Positions 1-5,948 of a stretch of 64,000 nt of DNA are shown in pieces. The translations under genes were made by a program, and so were the position numbers. This stretch comes from Desulfobacterales bacterium (lineage in GTDB: Bacteria > Desulfobacterota > Desulfobacteria > Desulfobacterales > JAEINQ01): assembly GCA_016342285.1 (NCBI GenBank), contig JAEINQ010000030.1, positions 4,490 to 68,489 of the forward strand, given 5' to 3'. Under the pieces are notes generated by a model, which saw only the letters and a list, made by a program, of their open reading frames with translations, did no database searches and was not told the origin of the DNA. Every line of letters starts with the position of its first letter. Position 1 is the first letter of the stretch.

Positions 1-111
1 GCCGGTAAATATGAACACCCCGCCGCCGATGGTCATCCCCACGGCGATGAAGGTCACCGCCCCAAGACCGAGCACCGGCTTCAGGGCCGGGCCGGATCGA
101 TGATCTCCCAT
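1..111 (-). CDS. APC-family amino acid permease, N-terminal part (runs off the window)
   Basis: Not in the ORF track. Manual translation from ATG 111 gives MGDHRSGPALKPVLGLGAVTFIAVGMTIGGGVFIFTG, matching the APC TM1 motif (LxxxLGL...VGxxIGxGIF). GAGG RBS upstream; overlaps the 3' end of the activase. Confidence 0.8.
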   Translation of the reverse strand, partial: MGDHRSGPALKPVLGLGAVTFIAVGMTIGGGVFIFTG

Positions 112-1040
112 GCCTCTTCTCCCGGGGAAAAAGAAACGATCCCCTGCTGTGCCAGAATACTCTTGGCCCGATTCACCCCATCGTCTCCCATCTCTCCGCG
201 GATGGGCGACGGGTCCAGCCCCAGCCACTGCCGTTTGTTGGCCCCCATGTCGTGGTAGGGCACCACGGTGACGTGCCCGCACTGCCTGTCGCGCAGAAAA
301 CCGGCCCACTGGGTCAGGTTCTCCCGGGTATCGGTGATACCCGGCACCAGGGGAATCCGGGGCCAGACCGGAGGGGCGGCCCGGTCCAGATACGCCCGCT
401 GCAGACGGGTAAAGTTCTCCCGTATGGACCGGTTCTCCCTCTTACAGAGCCGGACGTGCTGGTCCGGGTCCCATACCTTGAGGTCAAAAAGGATCAGGTC
501 CACGGAAAGGAGAAGCCCTGCCACCGGGTGTTGCGACCCAAGATCGGTTTCGGCAAAAAAACCGCAGGTGGACAGGGCCACGTGAACCCCGCGTTCCTGC
601 AACGCCGACGTCAACACCCGGGCAAACGCGGCATGGAGAACGGGCTCGCCCCCGGACAGGGTCACCCCGCCGCCCGAATCGGCCATCAGGGGAAACTCCG
701 GTGCCAGATCGGCCAGGAGAGAAGAGACCTCCCTGTCCTGGCCAAAGCGCACCCGGGCACCGGTGGGGCAGCGATCCACACAGGCAAAACAGCGGGTGCA
801 GGCCCCGTCCGCGCCGGCCGCCGCCCCGGTGGGGCAGACCTCGATGCAGGCCCCGCAGCCGATGCATCGGTCTTCACGAAAGCCGATCTCCGGCGCCGGC
901 CGCCACGACTCCGGGTTCTGGCACCAGGCACAGCGCAGCGGGCACCCCTTGAAGAATACCAGGCTACGGATGCCCGGCCCGTCATGGAGGCAGAAATGCT
1001 GCAACGAAAAGACCGGGGCCGTGAGCCGGTCAGACCCCAT
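81..1040 (-). CDS. Glycyl-radical enzyme activating enzyme (radical SAM, with 2x[4Fe-4S] ferredoxin insert)
   Basis: HDGPGIRSLVFFKGCPLRCAWCQNPES; insert CIGCGACIEVCP/CTRCFACVDRCP; GGVTLSGGEP. Start re-set to ATG 1040, which overlaps the GRE stop. Confidence 0.95.
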   Translation of the reverse strand: MGSDRLTAPVFSLQHFCLHDGPGIRSLVFFKGCPLRCAWCQNPESWRPAPEIGFREDRCIGCGACIEVCPTGAAAGADGACTRCFACVDRCPTGARVRFGQDREVSSLLADLAPEFPLMADSGGGVTLSGGEPVLHAAFARVLTSALQERGVHVALSTCGFFAETDLGSQHPVAGLLLSVDLILFDLKVWDPDQHVRLCKRENRSIRENFTRLQRAYLDRAAPPVWPRIPLVPGITDTRENLTQWAGFLRDRQCGHVTVVPYHDMGANKRQWLGLDPSPIRGEMGDDGVNRAKSILAQQGIVSFSPGEEAWEIIDPARP

Positions 1041-3483
1041 GGGCGGTCCTTTCGATGATCTCGTCCTGGACCTGGGGATTGAGGTCGTTGAAATAGGCGC
1101 AGTACCCCGCCACCCGGACCACAATCCCCGGCCAGGAAGCCGGATCTCTCTTGGCGGCCCGGAGGATGTTCGAATCCAGCACATTGGGCTGGACCTGCAT
1201 GCCTCCCTGGGCAAAGTAGTTTCGAAACAGGGATACCAAAGCCCGCCGGCCGCTCTCCGCCCTGACGAGACGGGGATCGAATTTGATGTTCAGCGCCGCG
1301 CAGTTGGCCCATTTGGAACTGTCCAGGGAGGCCGCCGAGCGAAGCAGCGCCGACGGCCCTTCCCGGTCCATGCCGTCCACCGGAGACAGGCCGTTGGACA
1401 ACCGGGTGCCGGCTTTTCGCCCGTTGGGCAGGGCGCCGGTGACGCGGCCAAATCCCACGTGGCAGGTCATGGAGTAGATCCCGGGAATGTAACGCCCTCC
1501 CCGGCTGTTTTGATGGGCGAGAACGGCGTCGCTGTAAATGTCGGCCGCAAGCTGGGTCATCCGGTCGGCCTCGGGGTGGCCGTTGCCGTATCTGGGGAAG
1601 CGCAGGGCCAGTTCCATGCGCAAGGGCTCCTCTCCGGCGAAGTCGGAGGCCAAAATGGCGGCCAGGCGGGAAAGGGAGAGTCTCTTTTCTTCGAAAACCA
1701 GTTTTTTCAGCGCCAGCAGCGAATCGCCGGTGTCGGCCAGGCCGGCCACCTGGATGGAGGTCAGGTCGTAATGGCCGCCGCCCCAGGTCGCATCCTTTCC
1801 CGTGTCCATGCAGCCCTGGGTCATCATGGAGGTAATGGGGGTGGGACGGTGGATACGGTAGGTCACCTCCAACCGGGTGATCACCCGGGCCATGCGGCCG
1901 ACCGCATCAGCCACCTGACTGCGAAAGGCGTCGAGAAAATCTTCGAAAGAATGCATCTCGGCCACAGCCGGGGTGGCCGCTCCCAGGGGCCGCTGCCCGG
2001 GTCTGGCTCCGAAGCATCGCCCCTGGTTCAAGGCCAGTTCCAGGCACAGGGGCAGGTTGAAAAGGGCGGCATCGGAAGAGTTGTAGGTCCGGCCCTGGCT
2101 GCCGATCTCCACGCAGCCGATCACCGCGTAGTCCCTGGCGTGGGGCAATGTCATGCCCGCGGTTTCGGTCAGGGCCCGGATCACGGCCTTATCTCCGAAA
2201 AAGGAGGGTTTGCCGCACCCGAGCTGCACCACGGCCACGGCCTTTTCCAGAAAAGATGCCGGGGTATCGTCGTGCACCCGCACATGGAGAGCCGGCTCCC
2301 GGGTCCGGAGCCAGGCATACGCTTCCAGGAAAAGATGGGAGAGTTCGTTGGTGGTATCTCCGCCCGCTTCATCCACGCCGCCCAGGGTAATCCCCTGAGC
2401 CACACCATTGCCGCTGAAAAACCGGTCGATGCGCTGAGAATACAGGGGAAGGGTTTCGCAGGTCTTTAGCTGAAAGCTGGCGATACGTTCCAGGGCCTGT
2501 TCGCGGGTCAGGGTTCCCCGGGCCAGCTCCCGACGGTAGAGAGGCTCCAGAAAACGGTCCAGGCGGCCAAAGGACATGCCCTGCTCGAAGTCCTCCTGGA
2601 TCAGGGCCACATGGACCAGCCAGCAGGACTGCAGGCCCTCGGCAAAGGTCCGGGCCGGGTGATAGGGGACGTGCCGGCAGGCCCGGGACGCCCGGAGAAG
2701 TTCCTCCCGCCGTGTGGGGGATACGCCGGGGCACCGGGCCTCTTTTTCCGCTTCGACCGCCAGGTTTTCAGCCATGCGCCGGATGCCGTCAATGGCCATG
2801 CGCACGGATCGGAAAAAGGCGGTCTGGTCGCAGGAAAGCCGCCGCCCGTTGGGAAGTGCGTTTCTTTCCAGTGCTTTTTGAGCCTCCCGGTCAATCCGGA
2901 CGAGTCCGTGGCGGATCAGGCTGTGGTAGTCGCCCACCTGGTGTCCCACCCCCGCCTCTTCCGTAATGAAGTAGCGCCGGGCGCGAAAGAAATCGAAAAA
3001 ATCGGAAAGCCATCCCGGACGCAAAAGTGCCTTGGCGCCGATACTTCGGCCCATGCTTTCCACACAAAATCCCGCCAATCGGACTTTCTCCCCAAAGCTG
3101 AGCGTCAACGGAGACTGGCGCCGTTCCAACCGGAAAAGATCTTCAAAGATGTTCATGGATCCGCCTTCCGGATAAAAATTGGCGGCGATCCGCTTGGACG
3201 TCATGTTGCCGATGATCATCTCTTCAGGATAGATCCGAGGCTGGCGGTGGACGAGGAGAAACCGCAGTGCCCGGGCCCTTTTGACCAGGGGGTGGTCGCG
3301 CCGGGCCCGGCGTCCTTCCCGGGAAAGGGAAAACCGGCGCAGCAACGAAGGACGTTCCAGACAAACGGAGGCCGACGTATTTAGCACGGTGCTGCGGATG
3401 GACGCGATCCGCGGAGGCGGCTCGGCAAACAGGTGGGAAGGTGCCGAATGGACGGCTGTGGGACTGGCAAGGCATCCGCTCAT
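1030..3483 (-). CDS. Glycyl radical enzyme, PFL-like fold, single-Cys (eliminase-type) class, substrate unknown
   Basis: Cys loop IGCVE; glycyl radical motif VRVAGY; GVGH; SFGRLD. Start moved to ATG 3483/3486 behind a GGAGG RBS, because the longer ORF start overlaps the promoter and operator. Confidence 0.95.
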   Translation of the reverse strand: MSGCLASPTAVHSAPSHLFAEPPPRIASIRSTVLNTSASVCLERPSLLRRFSLSREGRRARRDHPLVKRARALRFLLVHRQPRIYPEEMIIGNMTSKRIAANFYPEGGSMNIFEDLFRLERRQSPLTLSFGEKVRLAGFCVESMGRSIGAKALLRPGWLSDFFDFFRARRYFITEEAGVGHQVGDYHSLIRHGLVRIDREAQKALERNALPNGRRLSCDQTAFFRSVRMAIDGIRRMAENLAVEAEKEARCPGVSPTRREELLRASRACRHVPYHPARTFAEGLQSCWLVHVALIQEDFEQGMSFGRLDRFLEPLYRRELARGTLTREQALERIASFQLKTCETLPLYSQRIDRFFSGNGVAQGITLGGVDEAGGDTTNELSHLFLEAYAWLRTREPALHVRVHDDTPASFLEKAVAVVQLGCGKPSFFGDKAVIRALTETAGMTLPHARDYAVIGCVEIGSQGRTYNSSDAALFNLPLCLELALNQGRCFGARPGQRPLGAATPAVAEMHSFEDFLDAFRSQVADAVGRMARVITRLEVTYRIHRPTPITSMMTQGCMDTGKDATWGGGHYDLTSIQVAGLADTGDSLLALKKLVFEEKRLSLSRLAAILASDFAGEEPLRMELALRFPRYGNGHPEADRMTQLAADIYSDAVLAHQNSRGGRYIPGIYSMTCHVGFGRVTGALPNGRKAGTRLSNGLSPVDGMDREGPSALLRSAASLDSSKWANCAALNIKFDPRLVRAESGRRALVSLFRNYFAQGGMQVQPNVLDSNILRAAKRDPASWPGIVVRVAGYCAYFNDLNPQVQDEIIERTAHGV

Positions 3484-3533
3484 CATTTTCCTCCAAAGGC
3501 GGGATATGTTGGATCTGGGGAAATGAGCCAAAT

Positions 3534-3583
3534 CGGTATTACCGGATGCGCTTTCTGTAACAGCCCTGCTCAAGCCCTGTCAA
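3534..3583 (-). promoter_or_regulatory. Sigma70 promoter of the GRE operon plus palindromic operator CGGTATTACCG
   Basis: TTGACA on the minus strand (3583-3578); TGnTACAGA-like -10 near 3559-3554; palindrome at 3534-3544. Confidence 0.7.
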
Positions 3584-3648
3584 GGTGTAAATATCGCATA
3601 TATCCTTTTAATCTATAACTATAACGAAAACATACGCACCCCTTCCCC

Positions 3649-3688
3649 TTGACAAGAAAAGCCATCCTGACGCATAGTGGTATTACCA
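3649..3688 (+). promoter_or_regulatory. Sigma70 promoter of the GntR regulator plus operator TGGTATTACCA
   Basis: TTGACA (3649-3654), 18-nt spacer, CATAGT, then palindrome at 3678-3688 resembling FadR/PdhR-subfamily boxes (TGGT-N3-ACCA). Confidence 0.75.
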
Positions 3689-3701
3689 ATCAAGGTAAAT
3701 A

Positions 3702-3882
3702 GGCTGAAGACTGAAGGCTGAAGGCTGAAGGCTGAAGCAAAACCCGAATTCAGATCCAAACCCGCTGTGTCCGGATACAGCAAGGGCCGATGACTCAATA
3801 AGGGGGACAAACCCTCATTTCAACGGAATCTTCGATGATCCTCACCTTCGGACTTCGGACTTCGGACTTCAACCTTCAGACT
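3702..3882. repeat. Inverted pair of 5x heptamer tandem arrays, (GCTGAAG)n ... (CTTCGGA)n
   Basis: CTGAAG units at 3704, 3711, 3718, 3725, 3732; CTTC units at 3846, 3853, 3860, 3867, 3874. Confidence 0.85.
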
Positions 3883-3906
3883 ATACAGCTAATCGCAGGG
3901 GACCAC

Positions 3907-4635
3907 ATGGCCGACAATCTCTCGGATGCGGTTTACCGGAAACTGCAAAAACAGATTCTCGACAAGACCTATCCGCCGGGAAGCCGGTTCCCGTCAGAAA
4001 GGGACCTGGCCGAAGCCCTTGGCGTGAGCCGGGTGACCGTCCGTGAGGCGGTCCGCCGCCTGGCAGAACTGGGGCTGGTGAACAAGATTCCTTCCAGCGG
4101 AACCTATGTCAGGGAATTCGAGTCCGAAGCCTCCCTAGACCTGCTGGTGAAAATCATGCAGTCCAGAGACTCGCTGGATCCTGACATGCTCTCTTCCCTT
4201 TTGGAATTCCGGAGGGCCACAGAGGTATTTGCCGCCCGCGCGGCGGCCCTGCGGGCCTCACGGGAAGAGACGGCCGAGCTTCGAGCGATCCTTGCCGAAA
4301 TGGAAAACCGCCTGGAGGATGCCGACTTCCTGGCCCAGGCCGACTACCGGTTCCATTTCGCCCTGATCCGCATCTCCGGCAACCGGGTGTTCCGGCTCAT
4401 TCTCAATGCATTCAAACCGGTCTACACGTTTTACACCCGGTTTTTTTACGGTTTGGAAGAGATGCCCAGGCGGTCCATCCTCTTTTTCAGGAAACTCGTT
4501 TCGGCCCTTGAATCCAAGGATGAATTGTTTGCCGCCTACATCATGGAAAAGATGCTGGAATACGCCGAAAACCGGGTCAAGGAGGAGACCGACTTATTCA
4601 CCCGGTCCTTGGCCGGGGAAGGACAGACGAAATAG
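3907..4635 (+). CDS. GntR-family (FadR subfamily) transcriptional regulator
   Basis: PPGSRFPSERDLAEALGVSRVTVREA winged HTH; FCD domain DYRFHFALIRISGN. Confidence 0.95.
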   Translation: MADNLSDAVYRKLQKQILDKTYPPGSRFPSERDLAEALGVSRVTVREAVRRLAELGLVNKIPSSGTYVREFESEASLDLLVKIMQSRDSLDPDMLSSLLEFRRATEVFAARAAALRASREETAELRAILAEMENRLEDADFLAQADYRFHFALIRISGNRVFRLILNAFKPVYTFYTRFFYGLEEMPRRSILFFRKLVSALESKDELFAAYIMEKMLEYAENRVKEETDLFTRSLAGEGQTK

Positions 4636-4663
4636 AATCGGAATATTCATCGGAGGAACAAAA

Positions 4664-5550
4664 ATGACACCCAAGCACTGTCTCCGCCCCTGGTTTTTCT
4701 CCTTGTCCCTATTCTGCTCTTCTCCTGTGCATCCCACAGCCGGAAGCATTTTTCCCCGGATGCCGACGTCCAGCGCCCCCTGACAGAACTGGACAACCGG
4801 ATCCGGAACCTGGTGACCACCTCTTCGGGTCTTTCGCTCTCCGTCAAGCCTTTTCCCGAAGAAGAGGCTCATCCCCTGTGGCACATCACTCGAAAGGCAA
4901 AAAAGAATCCGGTCCGCCGGGTGTTGATCACCAGCGGCATCCATGGCAACGAGCCCGGAGGCGTGGAGACAGTGCTGGCCTTTATTCGAGCCCTGGACGC
5001 AGAACCGGACCGCTACCCAAACATCGAATTTCACATCCTGCCCCTGCTCAATCCCTGGGGATGGACGCGAAATCTGCGGTTCAATTCCAACGGCACGGAT
5101 ATCAATCGGGATTTTTCCTCGTTTGAATCGGTCAAGGCCCGGGCGATCCGAACCCTGGTGGGGCAGATGCGTTTCGACCTGGTGGTCAATCTCCATGAAG
5201 ACCCCGAGGCCACCGGGTTTTACATGTACCAGTATGCCCGACCGGACAAGGTGTTGTGCCGGCAGATCATCGAAACGGTGAGGCAATCCGGATTTCCGGT
5301 GGAACAAGAGATCCGGATGCTGCTCCTGAAAACCGAGGAAGGATTGATCGACGCCCCCCTGTGGGGACTTTGGTACATGCGCCTGACCCGGCAGTTGAGC
5401 TTTGACAATTACTGCCGGCTCGAATTGTCAATAAATGTCTTCACCCTGGAAACGCCCATGCAAGGCCCCATGGATACGCGGGTCGCCGTTCAACTGAAGG
5501 CCCTCCACATACTGATCCAGGCCCTTTGCGACCCCCTGCCCGGCGCTTAG
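4664..5550 (+). CDS. M14-family zinc carboxypeptidase/desuccinylase-like lipoprotein, with a 1-nt frameshift near 4687-4698
   Basis: SGIHGNE (HxxE), DINRDF, NLHED. GGAGGA-ATG at 4664 is out of frame with the downstream LVFLLVPILLFSC lipobox and catalytic domain. Confidence 0.75.
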
Positions 5551-5570
5551 CAGGCTGCTGAAAATGGAAA

Positions 5571-5948
5571 CTACTTTGTATCAAAACCCGGCATCTGCTT
5601 GAGCAGGCCAACGAGCATGTCGGCCTCCTTTGCCCCCGGGCTGGCCGGAATTCGGGCCATGATGCCCAGCCCTTCACTGGCCTCGTGAAAATCGTCTTCC
5701 GAAAGGTCGCTGACCACGGCCATGTTGATCATGGCATTAACGGCGATGACCTGCCGGGCAACGGCCAAGGCATCGCTGCCGTCGACCATGGCGTCAATGA
5801 CCAAAAGATCCGGTGCTTTGCCAAAGGCCAGGTCAACATCCCCAATGGACGAAGCACAGTCAGTCTGGCATTGGAAAGCGTCAGCCAGCCGCCGGGCCAT
5901 TTCGTCAAAGGCCGATACCCGTTCGGTCAGGATCACAATCTGTGGCAT
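5571..5948 (-). CDS. Single-domain atypical receiver (REC-like) protein
   Basis: PDLLVID with the phospho-Asp retained; the KP motif is absent (RIP); GAGGA RBS. Confidence 0.65.
   Translation of the reverse strand: MPQIVILTERVSAFDEMARRLADAFQCQTDCASSIGDVDLAFGKAPDLLVIDAMVDGSDALAVARQVIAVNAMINMAVVSDLSEDDFHEASEGLGIMARIPASPGAKEADMLVGLLKQMPGFDTK

What the first reader, a model, noticed from the sequence alone, without database searches (positions are those of the whole stretch)
1..5550. Uncharacterised glycyl radical enzyme locus wired for peptide or amino-acid catabolism
Seen: a GRE, a ferredoxin-containing activase and an APC permease overlap one another, divergent from a FadR regulator and an exported M14 peptidase. 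Established: a single-Cys GCVE loop excludes PFL (Cys-Cys) and is typical of radical eliminases (GD, PD, CutC, HypD, IslA). Inference from recalled motifs: the active site is a mosaic. It keeps glycerol-dehydratase-like GVGH, D (SSDAA) and Y (GIYS). It replaces the GD GHS and GYP segments with EQG and GNG, and has a HypD-like TCH without the HypD WDAF or TDF. No microcompartment, P5C reductase or aldehyde dehydrogenase genes lie in the window. This suggests a new GRE chemistry on an amino acid or amine released by the peptidase.
Basis: partly seen in the sequence, partly recalled or inferred. Interest (0 to 1): 0.85.

Follow-up and report, generated by a model that had tools for sequence, protein, structure and literature searches.

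The report
Orphan glycyl radical enzyme beside peptide-salvage genes
The region holds a real glycyl radical enzyme of a widespread but uncharacterised family with its activase and its own repressor, while the permease and peptidase next to it belong to a separate conserved module found in genomes that lack the enzyme, so they say little about its substrate.

Summary
A GRE (window 1030-3486, minus strand), a three-cluster radical-SAM activase (81-1043) and the start of an APC permease (1-111) overlap by 14 and 31 nt. They face a FadR-type GntR regulator (3907-4635) and an M14/MpaA-like amidase.

The GRE fits no characterised family. All NCBIfam equivalogs score 381-412 bits against cut-offs near 1000. 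The best solved relative is A. fulgidus PFL2 (32% identity), whose function is still debated.

It belongs to a tight, sharply bounded clade, with 61-88% identity among the 119 listed relatives and the next full-length relatives at 40% or less. The clade has an invariant eliminase apparatus: G823, C487-V-E489 and H211.

In 19 homolog loci the only recurring neighbours are the activase (13) and the divergent regulator (3). The regulator comes with a TGGTAWTACCA operator. None of the 19 has the permease, M14 or PLP gene.

Conversely, M14, permease and a PLP D-Cys-desulfhydrase-like gene form a contiguous module in 6 genomes that lack the GRE.

So two modules are juxtaposed here and in two close relatives. 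"Uncharacterised GRE" stands. "Wired for peptide catabolism" holds at most for this lineage. The substrate is unknown, most likely a small hydroxylated compound.

The parts
1..111 (-). 5' end (37 codons) of an APC-family permease. The full gene is 454 aa and continues left of the window (contig C83:3236-4600).
   Evidence: Pfam AA_permease 111.6 bits and AA_permease_2 111 bits. The database gene call P0188 is identical to this start. The start codon lies 31 nt inside the activase ORF.
81..1043 (-). GRE-activating radical-SAM enzyme (320 aa from MGSDRL) with two extra ferredoxin-type clusters.
   Evidence: TIGR02494 251 bits, over its 174 cut-off. Every specific activase equivalog is under its cut-off. 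CPLRCAWC, CIGCGACIEVCP and CTRCFACVDRCP are read. Homolog starts are seen (L004, MGSAEPLIF...).
1030..3486 (-). Glycyl radical enzyme, 818 aa (the ORF is open to 3573). Key residues: glycyl loop RVAGY (G823), Cys loop GCVE (C487, E489) and His211 (847-ORF numbering).
3487..3906 (.). Shared control region.
- Perfect operator TGGTATTACCA at 3678-3688.
- Imperfect palindromic copy CGGTATTACCG at 3534-3544.
- Promoter-like TTGACA-18-CATAGT at 3649-3678 (+), abutting the operator.
- 18-nt palindrome at 3764-3781.
- Heptamer arrays at 3701-3737 and 3844-3882.
   Evidence: TGGTA[AT]TACCA also lies upstream of the GRE in L039 (2 copies), L043 and L044 (2 copies), the three loci with the regulator, and in L042. 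The 6.5-Mb genome has only 2 perfect sites, and the other one is inside a coding region.
3907..4635 (+). FadR-subfamily GntR regulator (HTH + FCD domain), divergent from the GRE. The ORF is open from 3835.
   Evidence: Pfam GntR 69.9, FCD 70.9 and FadR_C 55.7 bits. NanR, LldR, FadR and PdhR models score 84-107 bits, all under their cut-offs. Orthologs at 45-53% identity sit divergent from the GRE in L039, L043 and L044.
4664..5550 (+). M14/MpaA-like zinc amidase, a lipoprotein in relatives. Here the signal peptide (ATG 4664) is separated from the catalytic ORF (4813-5550) by a 1-nt frameshift within 4682-4690.
   Evidence: Pfam and NCBIfam. Homologs are about 290 aa with MTPK...LLVFLLV...CACAS N-termini. 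The sequence was read.

Best explanation
Two unrelated gene modules lie side by side.

Module 1 is a self-contained unit of GRE, activase and regulator.
- The activase installs a glycyl radical on G823 (inferred from family membership).
- C487 becomes the thiyl radical that abstracts a substrate hydrogen (inferred).
- E489 of the invariant C-V-E motif acts as base and H211 as acid. Together they drive a 1,2-elimination or isomerisation of a hydroxylated substrate, as in glycerol and propanediol dehydratases (inferred).
- The unit is probably repressed by the divergent FadR-type regulator through TGGTAWTACCA boxes (inferred from conserved box positions). That regulator type usually senses small carboxylates (recalled).
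- The GRE belongs to a tight, horizontally scattered family of unknown substrate. The family is sister to a clade near the debated A. fulgidus PFL2.

Module 2 consists of an M14 amidase, an APC permease and a PLP D-Cys-desulfhydrase-family enzyme. An enolase-superfamily gene follows the PLP gene in L058.
- It is a conserved salvage module for a peptide-derived amino acid.
- It exists without any GRE in other genomes.

In this lineage module 1 sits between the permease and an inverted M14 gene. The local context is therefore weak evidence for the GRE's substrate. I take the substrate to be a small polar hydroxy compound, larger or more polar than glycerol and possibly carboxylated.
For: Family membership:
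- GRE superfamily and CXE class are shown.
- C487, V488, E489, H211, Y700, D501 and G823 are invariant in 117 of 117 family sequences.
- No characterised family fits. HpfG scores 412, PflD 408, HypD 407, CutC 385 and HpsG 381 bits against cut-offs of 1000-1109, and TIGR01774 scores 584 against 678.
- This genome has its own HypD (1263 bits) and HpsG (1557 bits) elsewhere.
- Best PDB sequence match is 2f3o at 436 bits, then CutC 389 and GD 387.
- The AlphaFold model has pLDDT 86. Its best Foldseek matches are GD, 1,2-propanediol dehydratase and 2f3o at TM 0.89-0.90 and 30-32% identity.

The family is sharply bounded:
- In 1.84 billion representatives clustered at 50% identity, one full-length representative lies at 63% identity, with 5 fragments at 50-61%. 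The next relatives are at 40% or less.
- In the tree the family clade has SH-aLRT 100 on a stem of 1.39, and is sister (95) to the 37%-identity paralogs.

Neighbourhoods of 19 homolog loci:
- Activase is adjacent in 13, plus 1 cut by a contig end.
- The FadR-like regulator is adjacent in 3.
- Permease, M14 and PLP genes are adjacent in 0.
- No other ORF cluster recurs in more than 3 loci.
- The operator box is present in all 4 regulator-bearing loci, counting the window.

Independence of module 2:
- There are 7 permease-ortholog loci in 6 genomes.
- M14 is directly upstream in 5 of 7 and the PLP gene directly downstream in 6 of 7. GRE, activase and FadR are present in 0 of 7.
- In one sample of 401 genomes of the phylum, the GRE family was found in 5 and the permease ortholog in 5. 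Both were found only in the window's own genome.
Against: - The activase stop overlaps the permease start by 31 nt, which suggests co-transcription and translational coupling.
- G+C content groups the permease (61.1%) and PLP gene (62.6%) with the GRE (63.1%) and activase (66.1%). M14 (57.5%), FadR (57.3%) and the genome (56.4%) are lower.
- A simple insertion model does not explain why M14 is inverted, or why 384 nt now separate the permease from the PLP gene.
- The substrate class is inferred from motif conservation only. No coordinates were available to inspect the pocket.
- The 19 loci are those the tools could fetch, not all 368 homologs.
Confidence: 0.6

Rival explanations
1. The orphan GRE has been recruited into the peptide/amino-acid salvage operon. 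It performs a radical elimination on an amino acid or amine that the M14 amidase releases and the APC permease imports. The PLP enzyme finishes the pathway.
For: - The 14-nt and 31-nt gene overlaps chain GRE, activase and permease together.
- The linkage is kept in two relatives at 87-88% identity.
- GRE, activase, permease and PLP gene share a raised G+C of 61-66%.
- M14 now sits downstream of the GRE's regulator.
- Several family-invariant residues around the active-site motifs are acidic: E205, E206, D328 and E330.
- FCD regulators sense carboxylates, which amino acids carry (recalled).
Against: - 0 of 19 other family loci have a permease, M14 or PLP gene.
- The M14-permease-PLP module stands alone in 6 genomes where the GRE family was not found.
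- A near relative carries the permease (84%) and M14 (81%) on one 46873-bp contig, and no GRE hit has that contig length.
- The M14 gene is frameshifted here.
- 384 nt separate the permease from the PLP gene, whereas the two abut or overlap in L058, L059 and L060 and lie 40-100 nt apart in L061, L065 and L067.
Confidence: 0.25
2. The family is simply isofunctional with B12-independent glycerol dehydratase or 1,2-propanediol dehydratase.
For: - The top fold matches are GD (1r8w) and 1,2-propanediol dehydratases (9rco, 5i2g) at TM 0.88-0.90.
- The equivalents of GD His164, Cys433, Glu435, Asp447 and Tyr640 are kept and invariant.
- Having no dedicated transporter in most loci fits a freely diffusing diol.
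Against: - GD His281-Ser282 are Gln-Gly here, invariant in the family, and GD Tyr339 is Asn.
- Identity to GD is only 30%.
- The score is under the TIGR01774 subfamily cut-off.
- No microcompartment or aldehyde dehydrogenase gene lies on the contig, and none recurs in the 19 loci.
Confidence: 0.1
3. It is a hydrocarbon-activating fumarate-adding enzyme, as has been proposed for its nearest solved relative, A. fulgidus PFL2.
For: - Named homologs come from alkane-degrading taxa: Desulfosudis oleivorans, Desulfatibacillum aliphaticivorans and Smithella.
- The 2026 review reports the MASS proposal for PFL2.
Against: - The CXE glutamate typical of eliminases and isomerases is invariant.
- No recurring small-subunit ORF of 70 aa or more lies beside the GRE in 19 loci. 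Shorter ORFs were not examined.
- Fold and identity are lower to BSS and MASS (TM 0.83-0.86, 22%) than to the dehydratases.
Confidence: 0.03

Closest known systems
Archaeoglobus fulgidus PFL2 (PDB 2F3O), a GRE of debated function
   Same: - Best sequence match among solved structures, at 436 bits.
- TM 0.90/0.95 and rmsd 2.2.
- Shares TE..G.GH, E..EQ, GCVE, SSDAAL and the Tyr of the Y-x-M-T strand.
   Different: - Only 32% identical.
- Differs at family-invariant positions: E206->I, Q212->V, N389->Q, S492/Q493->P/F and C704/H705->T/N.
- A separate 37%-identity paralog clade is closer to 2f3o, at 527 bits.
- Its own function is unknown.
B12-independent glycerol dehydratase (1R8W/1R9D) and GRE 1,2-propanediol dehydratases (5I2G, 9RCO)
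   Same: - Same fold, TM 0.88-0.90.
- The equivalents of Cys433, Glu435, His164, Asp447 and Tyr640 are kept.
   Different: - 28-30% identity.
- GHS is replaced by EQG and GYP by GNG.
- No diol-pathway or microcompartment genes are nearby.
trans-4-hydroxy-L-proline dehydratase HypD
   Same: Shares T-E before the His loop and T-C-H on the Tyr strand with this genome's own HypD.
   Different: - NF043068 scores 407 bits against a cut-off of 1100.
- HypD's W-D-A-F is F-E-Q-G-M here.
- The genome already has a true HypD on contig C79, at 1263 bits.
PdhR/LldR/FadR-type GntR repressors with TGGT-N3-ACCA operators (consensus recalled, not from a call)
   Same: - HTH plus FCD domains.
- Palindromic TGGTAWTACCA boxes in the divergent intergenic region, conserved across 4 loci.
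   Different: - All named regulator models are under their cut-offs, at 84-107 bits.
- The ligand is unknown.
E. coli mpaA-ycjG murein-peptide recycling genes (recalled), as a comparison for the M14-permease-PLP module
   Same: An MpaA-like M14 amidase lies in one gene run with an enolase-superfamily (MR_MLE) gene in L058.
   Different: - The MpaA model scores 31 bits against a cut-off of 157.
- The module adds an APC permease and a D-Cys-desulfhydrase-family PLP enzyme.
- Its function is untested.

Membership tests
Glycyl radical enzyme superfamily (PFL-like) | PFL-like barrel domain plus a C-terminal glycyl-radical motif RVxG[FWY] | tested here: met
   PF02901 482 bits and PF01228 81 bits. 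RVAGY has G823 invariant in 117/117. The model shows the GRE fold at TM 0.9 to solved GREs.
Glycyl radical enzyme superfamily (PFL-like) | Adjacent radical-SAM activating enzyme | tested here: met
   TIGR02494 251 bits, over its 174 cut-off. It overlaps the GRE stop by 14 nt.
GRE 1,2-eliminases / isomerases | Single catalytic Cys in a C-x-E motif, as stated in review PMC13450708 (sections read) | tested here: met
   G486-C487-V488-E489 is invariant in 117/117.
Pyruvate formate-lyase | Cys-Cys pair; equivalog TIGR01255 | tested here: not met
   It has a single Cys (GCVE). TIGR01255 scores 119.8 bits against a cut-off of 994.
NCBIfam TIGR01774 (PFL2/glycerol dehydratase subfamily) | Score over the curated cut-off | tested here: not met
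   584.3 bits against 678.2.
Glycerol dehydratase | Substrate-binding His164, His281-Ser282, Tyr339, Asp447 and Tyr640. The residue roles are partly recalled; His164, Glu435 and Cys433 come. | tested here: not met
   The His164, Asp447 and Tyr640 equivalents are kept. His281-Ser282 become Gln-Gly and Tyr339 becomes Asn.
HypD, CutC, HpsG, HpfG, PflD, indoleacetate and HPA decarboxylases | Score over the equivalog cut-off | tested here: not met
   Scores are 407, 385, 381, 412, 408, 345 and 268 bits against cut-offs of 1000-1150.
X-succinate synthases | Small beta/gamma subunit genes beside the catalytic subunit | tested here: inconclusive
   No recurring neighbour ORF of 70 aa or more in 19 loci; shorter ORFs were not examined. 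TM 0.83-0.86 and 22% identity to BSS/MASS.
A. fulgidus PFL2 clade | Orthology: closest clade in a tree and shared specificity residues | tested here: not met
   The family is sister to, not inside, the 37%-paralog clade that scores higher to 2f3o, at 527 against 436 bits. 2f3o itself could not be placed in the tree.
GntR/FadR-subfamily regulators | N-terminal GntR HTH plus C-terminal FCD domain | tested here: met
   PF00392 69.9 bits and PF07729 70.9 bits.
APC superfamily permeases | AA_permease domain | tested here: met
   PF00324 111.6 bits. No NCBIfam equivalog is reached; the best is TIGR00909 at 162 against 557.
MpaA (murein tripeptide amidase) | Score over the NF007897 cut-off | tested here: not met
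   31 bits against 157. Only generic M14 and AstE_AspA domains are matched.

The most novel reading that the evidence does not exclude
An orphan, horizontally mobile GRE-activase-repressor cassette of unknown chemistry has been captured by a murein-peptide / D-amino-acid salvage operon in this lineage. There it would perform a radical elimination on an amino acid or amino alcohol that no known GRE handles. Only CutC is known as a C-N-cleaving GRE eliminase. If so, the permease, the PLP enzyme and the TGGTAWTACCA repressor would give three experimental handles on the substrate of a whole environmental GRE clade related to the long-debated A. fulgidus PFL2.
Probability: 0.2. Interest if true: 0.75.

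Novelty: new variant of a known kind. Interest (0 to 1): 0.45.

Why it matters
GREs are a main source of new anaerobic chemistry, and the 2026 review notes that whole clades remain unassigned.

- This clade is abundant. The best 120 clusters listed lie at 61% identity or more, and named sources include Desulfobacterota, Syntrophales, Chloroflexi and Bacillota MAGs.
- It is sharply bounded and has an invariant, distinctive active site.
- It is related to the archaeal PFL2, whose function has been argued over for two decades.
- This report supplies a defined family and a cognate repressor-operator pair for ligand screening. It also warns that the attractive local context (permease, peptidase) is a separate module.
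- The enzyme itself remains one more uncharacterised GRE until it is assayed.

Tried and rejected
- The look-up of sequencing runs listed no run and no RNA holder for window 1-5600. Expression and the M14 frameshift could therefore not be checked with reads, and read laying was not used.
- The listing of cluster members returned no accession numbers.
- A regulon scan of the whole genome for TGGTA[AT]TACCA gave 2 sites. The second (C17:90034) lies inside a membrane-protein ORF and was set aside as chance.
- In the window alone one match is not significant, since 25 of 100 shuffles had at least 1 match. The weight of the operator comes from its recurrence in L039, L043, L044 and L042.
- The promoter and terminator scans were at chance level overall.
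- The careful IQ-TREE search did not finish. The quick tree (SH-aLRT only) was used and has long-branch warnings for the own-genome paralogs.
- GD, PD, CutC, IslA and 2f3o sequences could not be placed in the tree, because PDB sequences are not stored objects here. Placement against them rests on HMM and phmmer scores and on Foldseek.
- The PFL and fumarate-adding readings were considered and rejected (see rival explanations and membership tests).
- P5C reductase genes were not searched for.
- Literature: searches found no paper assigning a function to this clade.
- Of PMC13450708 I read sections 26, 30 and 33 and found passages. Of PMC3598227, PMC7229112 and PMC6776118 I read found passages only. 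Khelifi et al. 2014 was seen only as a reference entry.
- No supplementary files were opened. Similarity-network tables in such files could bear on whether this cluster has been flagged before.
Full report
ANATOMY. The window is G000:C83:4490-68489, and I read the 4.5 kb to its left as L001.

On the minus strand the genes run as follows.
- A GRE. The ORF is 1030..3573, and the database gene call P0001 gives 818 aa from M30, i.e. 1030..3486.
- Its activase. The ORF is 81..1214, and homologs put the start at MGSDRL (1043). It overlaps the GRE stop by 14 nt.
- An APC permease of 454 aa. Its ATG (window 111) lies 31 nt inside the activase ORF, and only its first 37 codons are in the window.
- After a 384-nt spacer, a 546-aa protein (ATG at L001 2851) that fuses a D-cysteine-desulfhydrase/CuyA-family PLP domain to a SelL-like redoxin with a CPLC motif.

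On the plus strand the genes run as follows.
- A GntR+FCD regulator. The ORF is 3835..4635, with a likely start at 3907.
- An M14/AstE-like amidase at 4813..5550.

Homologs of the amidase are about 290 aa and start with a lipoprotein signal. Here that signal starts at ATG 4664 in another frame. A 1-nt frameshift within 4682-4690 separates it from the catalytic ORF.

THE GRE IS REAL AND UNASSIGNED.
- Pfam gives PFL-like 482 bits and Gly_radical 81 bits.
- Every NCBIfam equivalog is far under its cut-off: HpfG 412, PflD 408, HypD 407, CutC 385, HpsG 381, IAD 345, HPAD 268 and PFL 120, against cut-offs of 994-1150. Even the TIGR01774 subfamily model is under its cut-off, at 584 against 678.
- Against all PDB sequences the best match is A. 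fulgidus PFL2 (2f3o, 436 bits). CutC (389), glycerol dehydratase (387), PflD (371) and propanediol dehydratases (366, 360) follow.
- An AlphaFold2 model built on 53 family sequences has pLDDT 86 and pTM 0.89.
- Its best Foldseek matches are GD, a 1,2-propanediol dehydratase (9rco) and 2f3o, at TM 0.89-0.90 and 30-32% identity. BSS and MASS score TM 0.83-0.86 at 22% identity.
- The genome carries eight GRE genes. Two are assignable, HypD (1263 bits) and HpsG (1557 bits), and the window's GRE is neither.

THE FAMILY.
- The search for homologous proteins returned 368 hits. Besides the window's own protein, the best 120 clusters comprise two at 88% identity, two at 72%, and the rest at 61-68%.
- Named sources are Desulfobacterota, Syntrophales, Chloroflexi and Bacillota MAGs, and Desulfatibacillum aliphaticivorans.
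- In the library of 50%-identity representatives the family collapses to one full-length representative (63%, 1104 bits) and five fragments. The scores then drop to 598 bits or less and 40% identity or less.
- The quick ML tree puts 18 family rows in one clade (SH-aLRT 100, stem 1.39). That clade is sister (95) to three 37%-identity paralogs and is separate from the genome's HypD, HpsG and other GREs.
- One of those paralogs scores higher to 2f3o (527 bits) than the window's GRE does. The family is therefore a neighbour of PFL2, not an ortholog.
- The family is patchy. At 53% identity or more it occurs in 6 of 61 genomes of the order, and in 5 of 401 genomes of the phylum, counting the window's genome in both.

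ACTIVE SITE. Across 117 family sequences, 229 of 818 positions are at least 98% conserved. Residues are numbered on the 847-aa ORF.

The following are invariant or nearly so.
- T204-E205-E206-A-G-x-G-H211-Q212
- E327-D328-F329-E330-Q331-G332-x-S334
- F386-S-G-N389-G-V-A-Q393
- G486-C487-V-E489, followed by S492-Q493-G-R-T-Y-N-S-S-D501-A-A-L-F-N
- G698-x-Y700-S-M-T-C704-H705
- R820-V-A-G823-Y-C-A-Y-F

The HMMER alignment to GD shows the following.
- The GD His164, Cys433, Glu435, Asp447 and Tyr640 equivalents are kept.
- GD His281-Ser282 become Gln-Gly.
- GD Tyr339 becomes Asn.

T-C-H is shared with the genome's own HypD, and HypD's W-D-A-F is absent. The review PMC13450708 states that the C-x-E motif is common to all characterised GRE eliminases and isomerases.

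WHAT TRAVELS WITH THE GRE. I collected 19 loci of family members at 52-70% identity.
- tblastn with the window's proteins found the activase next to the GRE in 13 loci, plus one cut by a contig end.
- It found the FadR-like regulator divergent from the GRE in 3 loci, L039, L043 and L044, at 45-53% identity.
- It found the permease, the M14 amidase and the PLP enzyme in none.
- Clustering of all neighbour ORFs found no other family in more than 3 loci.
- Sampled neighbours are unrelated to each other: a Gate-domain membrane protein, DUF362 with Fer4, an NAD epimerase, an MFS transporter, a CNNM transporter and SfsA.

All four regulator-bearing loci carry palindromic TGGTA[AT]TACCA boxes between the regulator and the GRE. 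L039 and L044 have two each. The window has one perfect box and one imperfect box. L042 has a box without an adjacent regulator. The other 12 loci examined have none.

In the window:
- The perfect box (3678-3688) abuts a promoter-like TTGACA-18-CATAGT that points towards the regulator.
- A palindromic variant, CGGTATTACCG (3534-3544), lies on the GRE side.
- Genome-wide there are only two perfect sites.
- The box resembles the TGGT-N3-ACCA operators of PdhR, LldR and FadR-type repressors. That consensus is recalled, not taken from a call.

THE PERMEASE AND PEPTIDASE BELONG TO ANOTHER MODULE. Orthologs of the permease (50-58% identity) were found in 6 other genomes, 2 of 60 in the order sample and 4 of 400 in the phylum sample. 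In none of them was the GRE family found.

In their 7 loci:
- An M14 homolog lies directly upstream and co-directional in 5: L058, L059, L061, L066 and L067.
- The PLP enzyme lies directly downstream in 6: L058, L059, L060, L061, L065 and L067.
- GRE, activase and FadR are present in 0.
- In L058 an enolase-superfamily (MR_MLE) gene follows the PLP gene. Its ortholog in the window's genome sits on another contig.

So M14, permease and PLP form a conserved salvage module in its own right. In the window's lineage, the GRE, activase and regulator unit lies between the permease and an inverted M14 gene.

In the nearest relatives:
- GRE (88%) and permease (87%) share contigs of 52935 bp and 6031 bp.
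- A third relative has the permease (84%) and M14 (81%) on a 46873-bp contig, and no listed GRE hit has that contig length.

READING. I take the GRE to be a radical 1,2-eliminase or isomerase.
- Shown: it has the fold, the motifs and a cognate activase.
- Inferred: the roles of G823, C487, E489 and H211, by analogy with GD; repression through the boxes; and the substrate class.
- The kept GD-like Asp and Tyr together with a wider, more polar Gln-Gly / Asn-Gly wall suggest a hydroxy compound larger or more polar than glycerol.
- The FCD regulator hints at a carboxylate.

Three observations speak against treating the local context as incidental.
- The genes overlap.
- The linkage is kept in two close relatives.
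- The GRE, activase, permease and PLP gene all have 61-66% G+C, against 57% for the regulator and M14 and 56.4% for the genome.

I therefore give the lineage-specific recruitment reading 0.25.

LITERATURE.
- The 2026 review calls PFL2 'a GRE of unknown function'.
- It also states that entire clades lack validation.
- Five searches found nothing that assigns this clade.

LIMITS.
- The 19 + 7 loci are what the tools could fetch.
- No coordinates, no reads and no RNA data were available.
- The tree is a quick one and lacks the solved reference enzymes.

Noticed in passing
window 4664-4813: The M14/MpaA-like gene has a 1-nt frameshift within 4682-4690, a C-rich run. It cuts off the lipoprotein signal peptide that all close homologs carry. 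It could be an assembly error or a real pseudogene.
   Followed up: partly
L001 1211-2851 (contig C83, left of the window): A D-cysteine-desulfhydrase/CuyA-family PLP enzyme is fused to a SelL-related redoxin domain with a CPLC motif. In the six other genomes the PLP orthologs aligned only over the PLP domain (residues 11-376).
   Followed up: partly
L058, L059, L061, L066, L067 (G001, G010, G399, G333, G438): A conserved run of M14 lipoprotein amidase, APC permease and PLP D-Cys-desulfhydrase-like gene, with an enolase-superfamily gene in L058. It looks like a salvage module for a peptide-derived, perhaps D-, amino acid. Its function is untested.
   Followed up: partly
window 3701-3737 and 3844-3882, around the palindrome at 3764-3781: Two arrays of GAAG-containing heptamers (AGGCTGA x5.3 and CTTCGGA x3.6) lie in inverted orientation. 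They flank an 18-nt palindrome (GCTGTGTCCGGATACAGC) in the GRE-regulator intergenic region. No explanation was found.
   Followed up: no
G000 contigs C79, C70, C73, C88, C42: The genome holds eight GRE genes. They are a HypD (C79), an HpsG-type enzyme (C73), one TIGR01774-type GRE (C70), a 1017-aa GRE (C88), three 883-906-aa GREs on C42 and the window's own. The HpsG-type gene is followed 5-9 kb downstream by five BMC shell genes and an aldehyde dehydrogenase.
   Followed up: partly
L001 57-998: An AAA_14/DUF4143 ATPase gene sits at the contig start, just beyond the PLP gene. In L058 an enolase-superfamily gene follows the PLP gene instead. This is another sign that the region has been rearranged.
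   Followed up: no
L040 and L045 (G005, G420): In these two genomes of one genus, the family GRE has no activase gene next to it.
   Followed up: no
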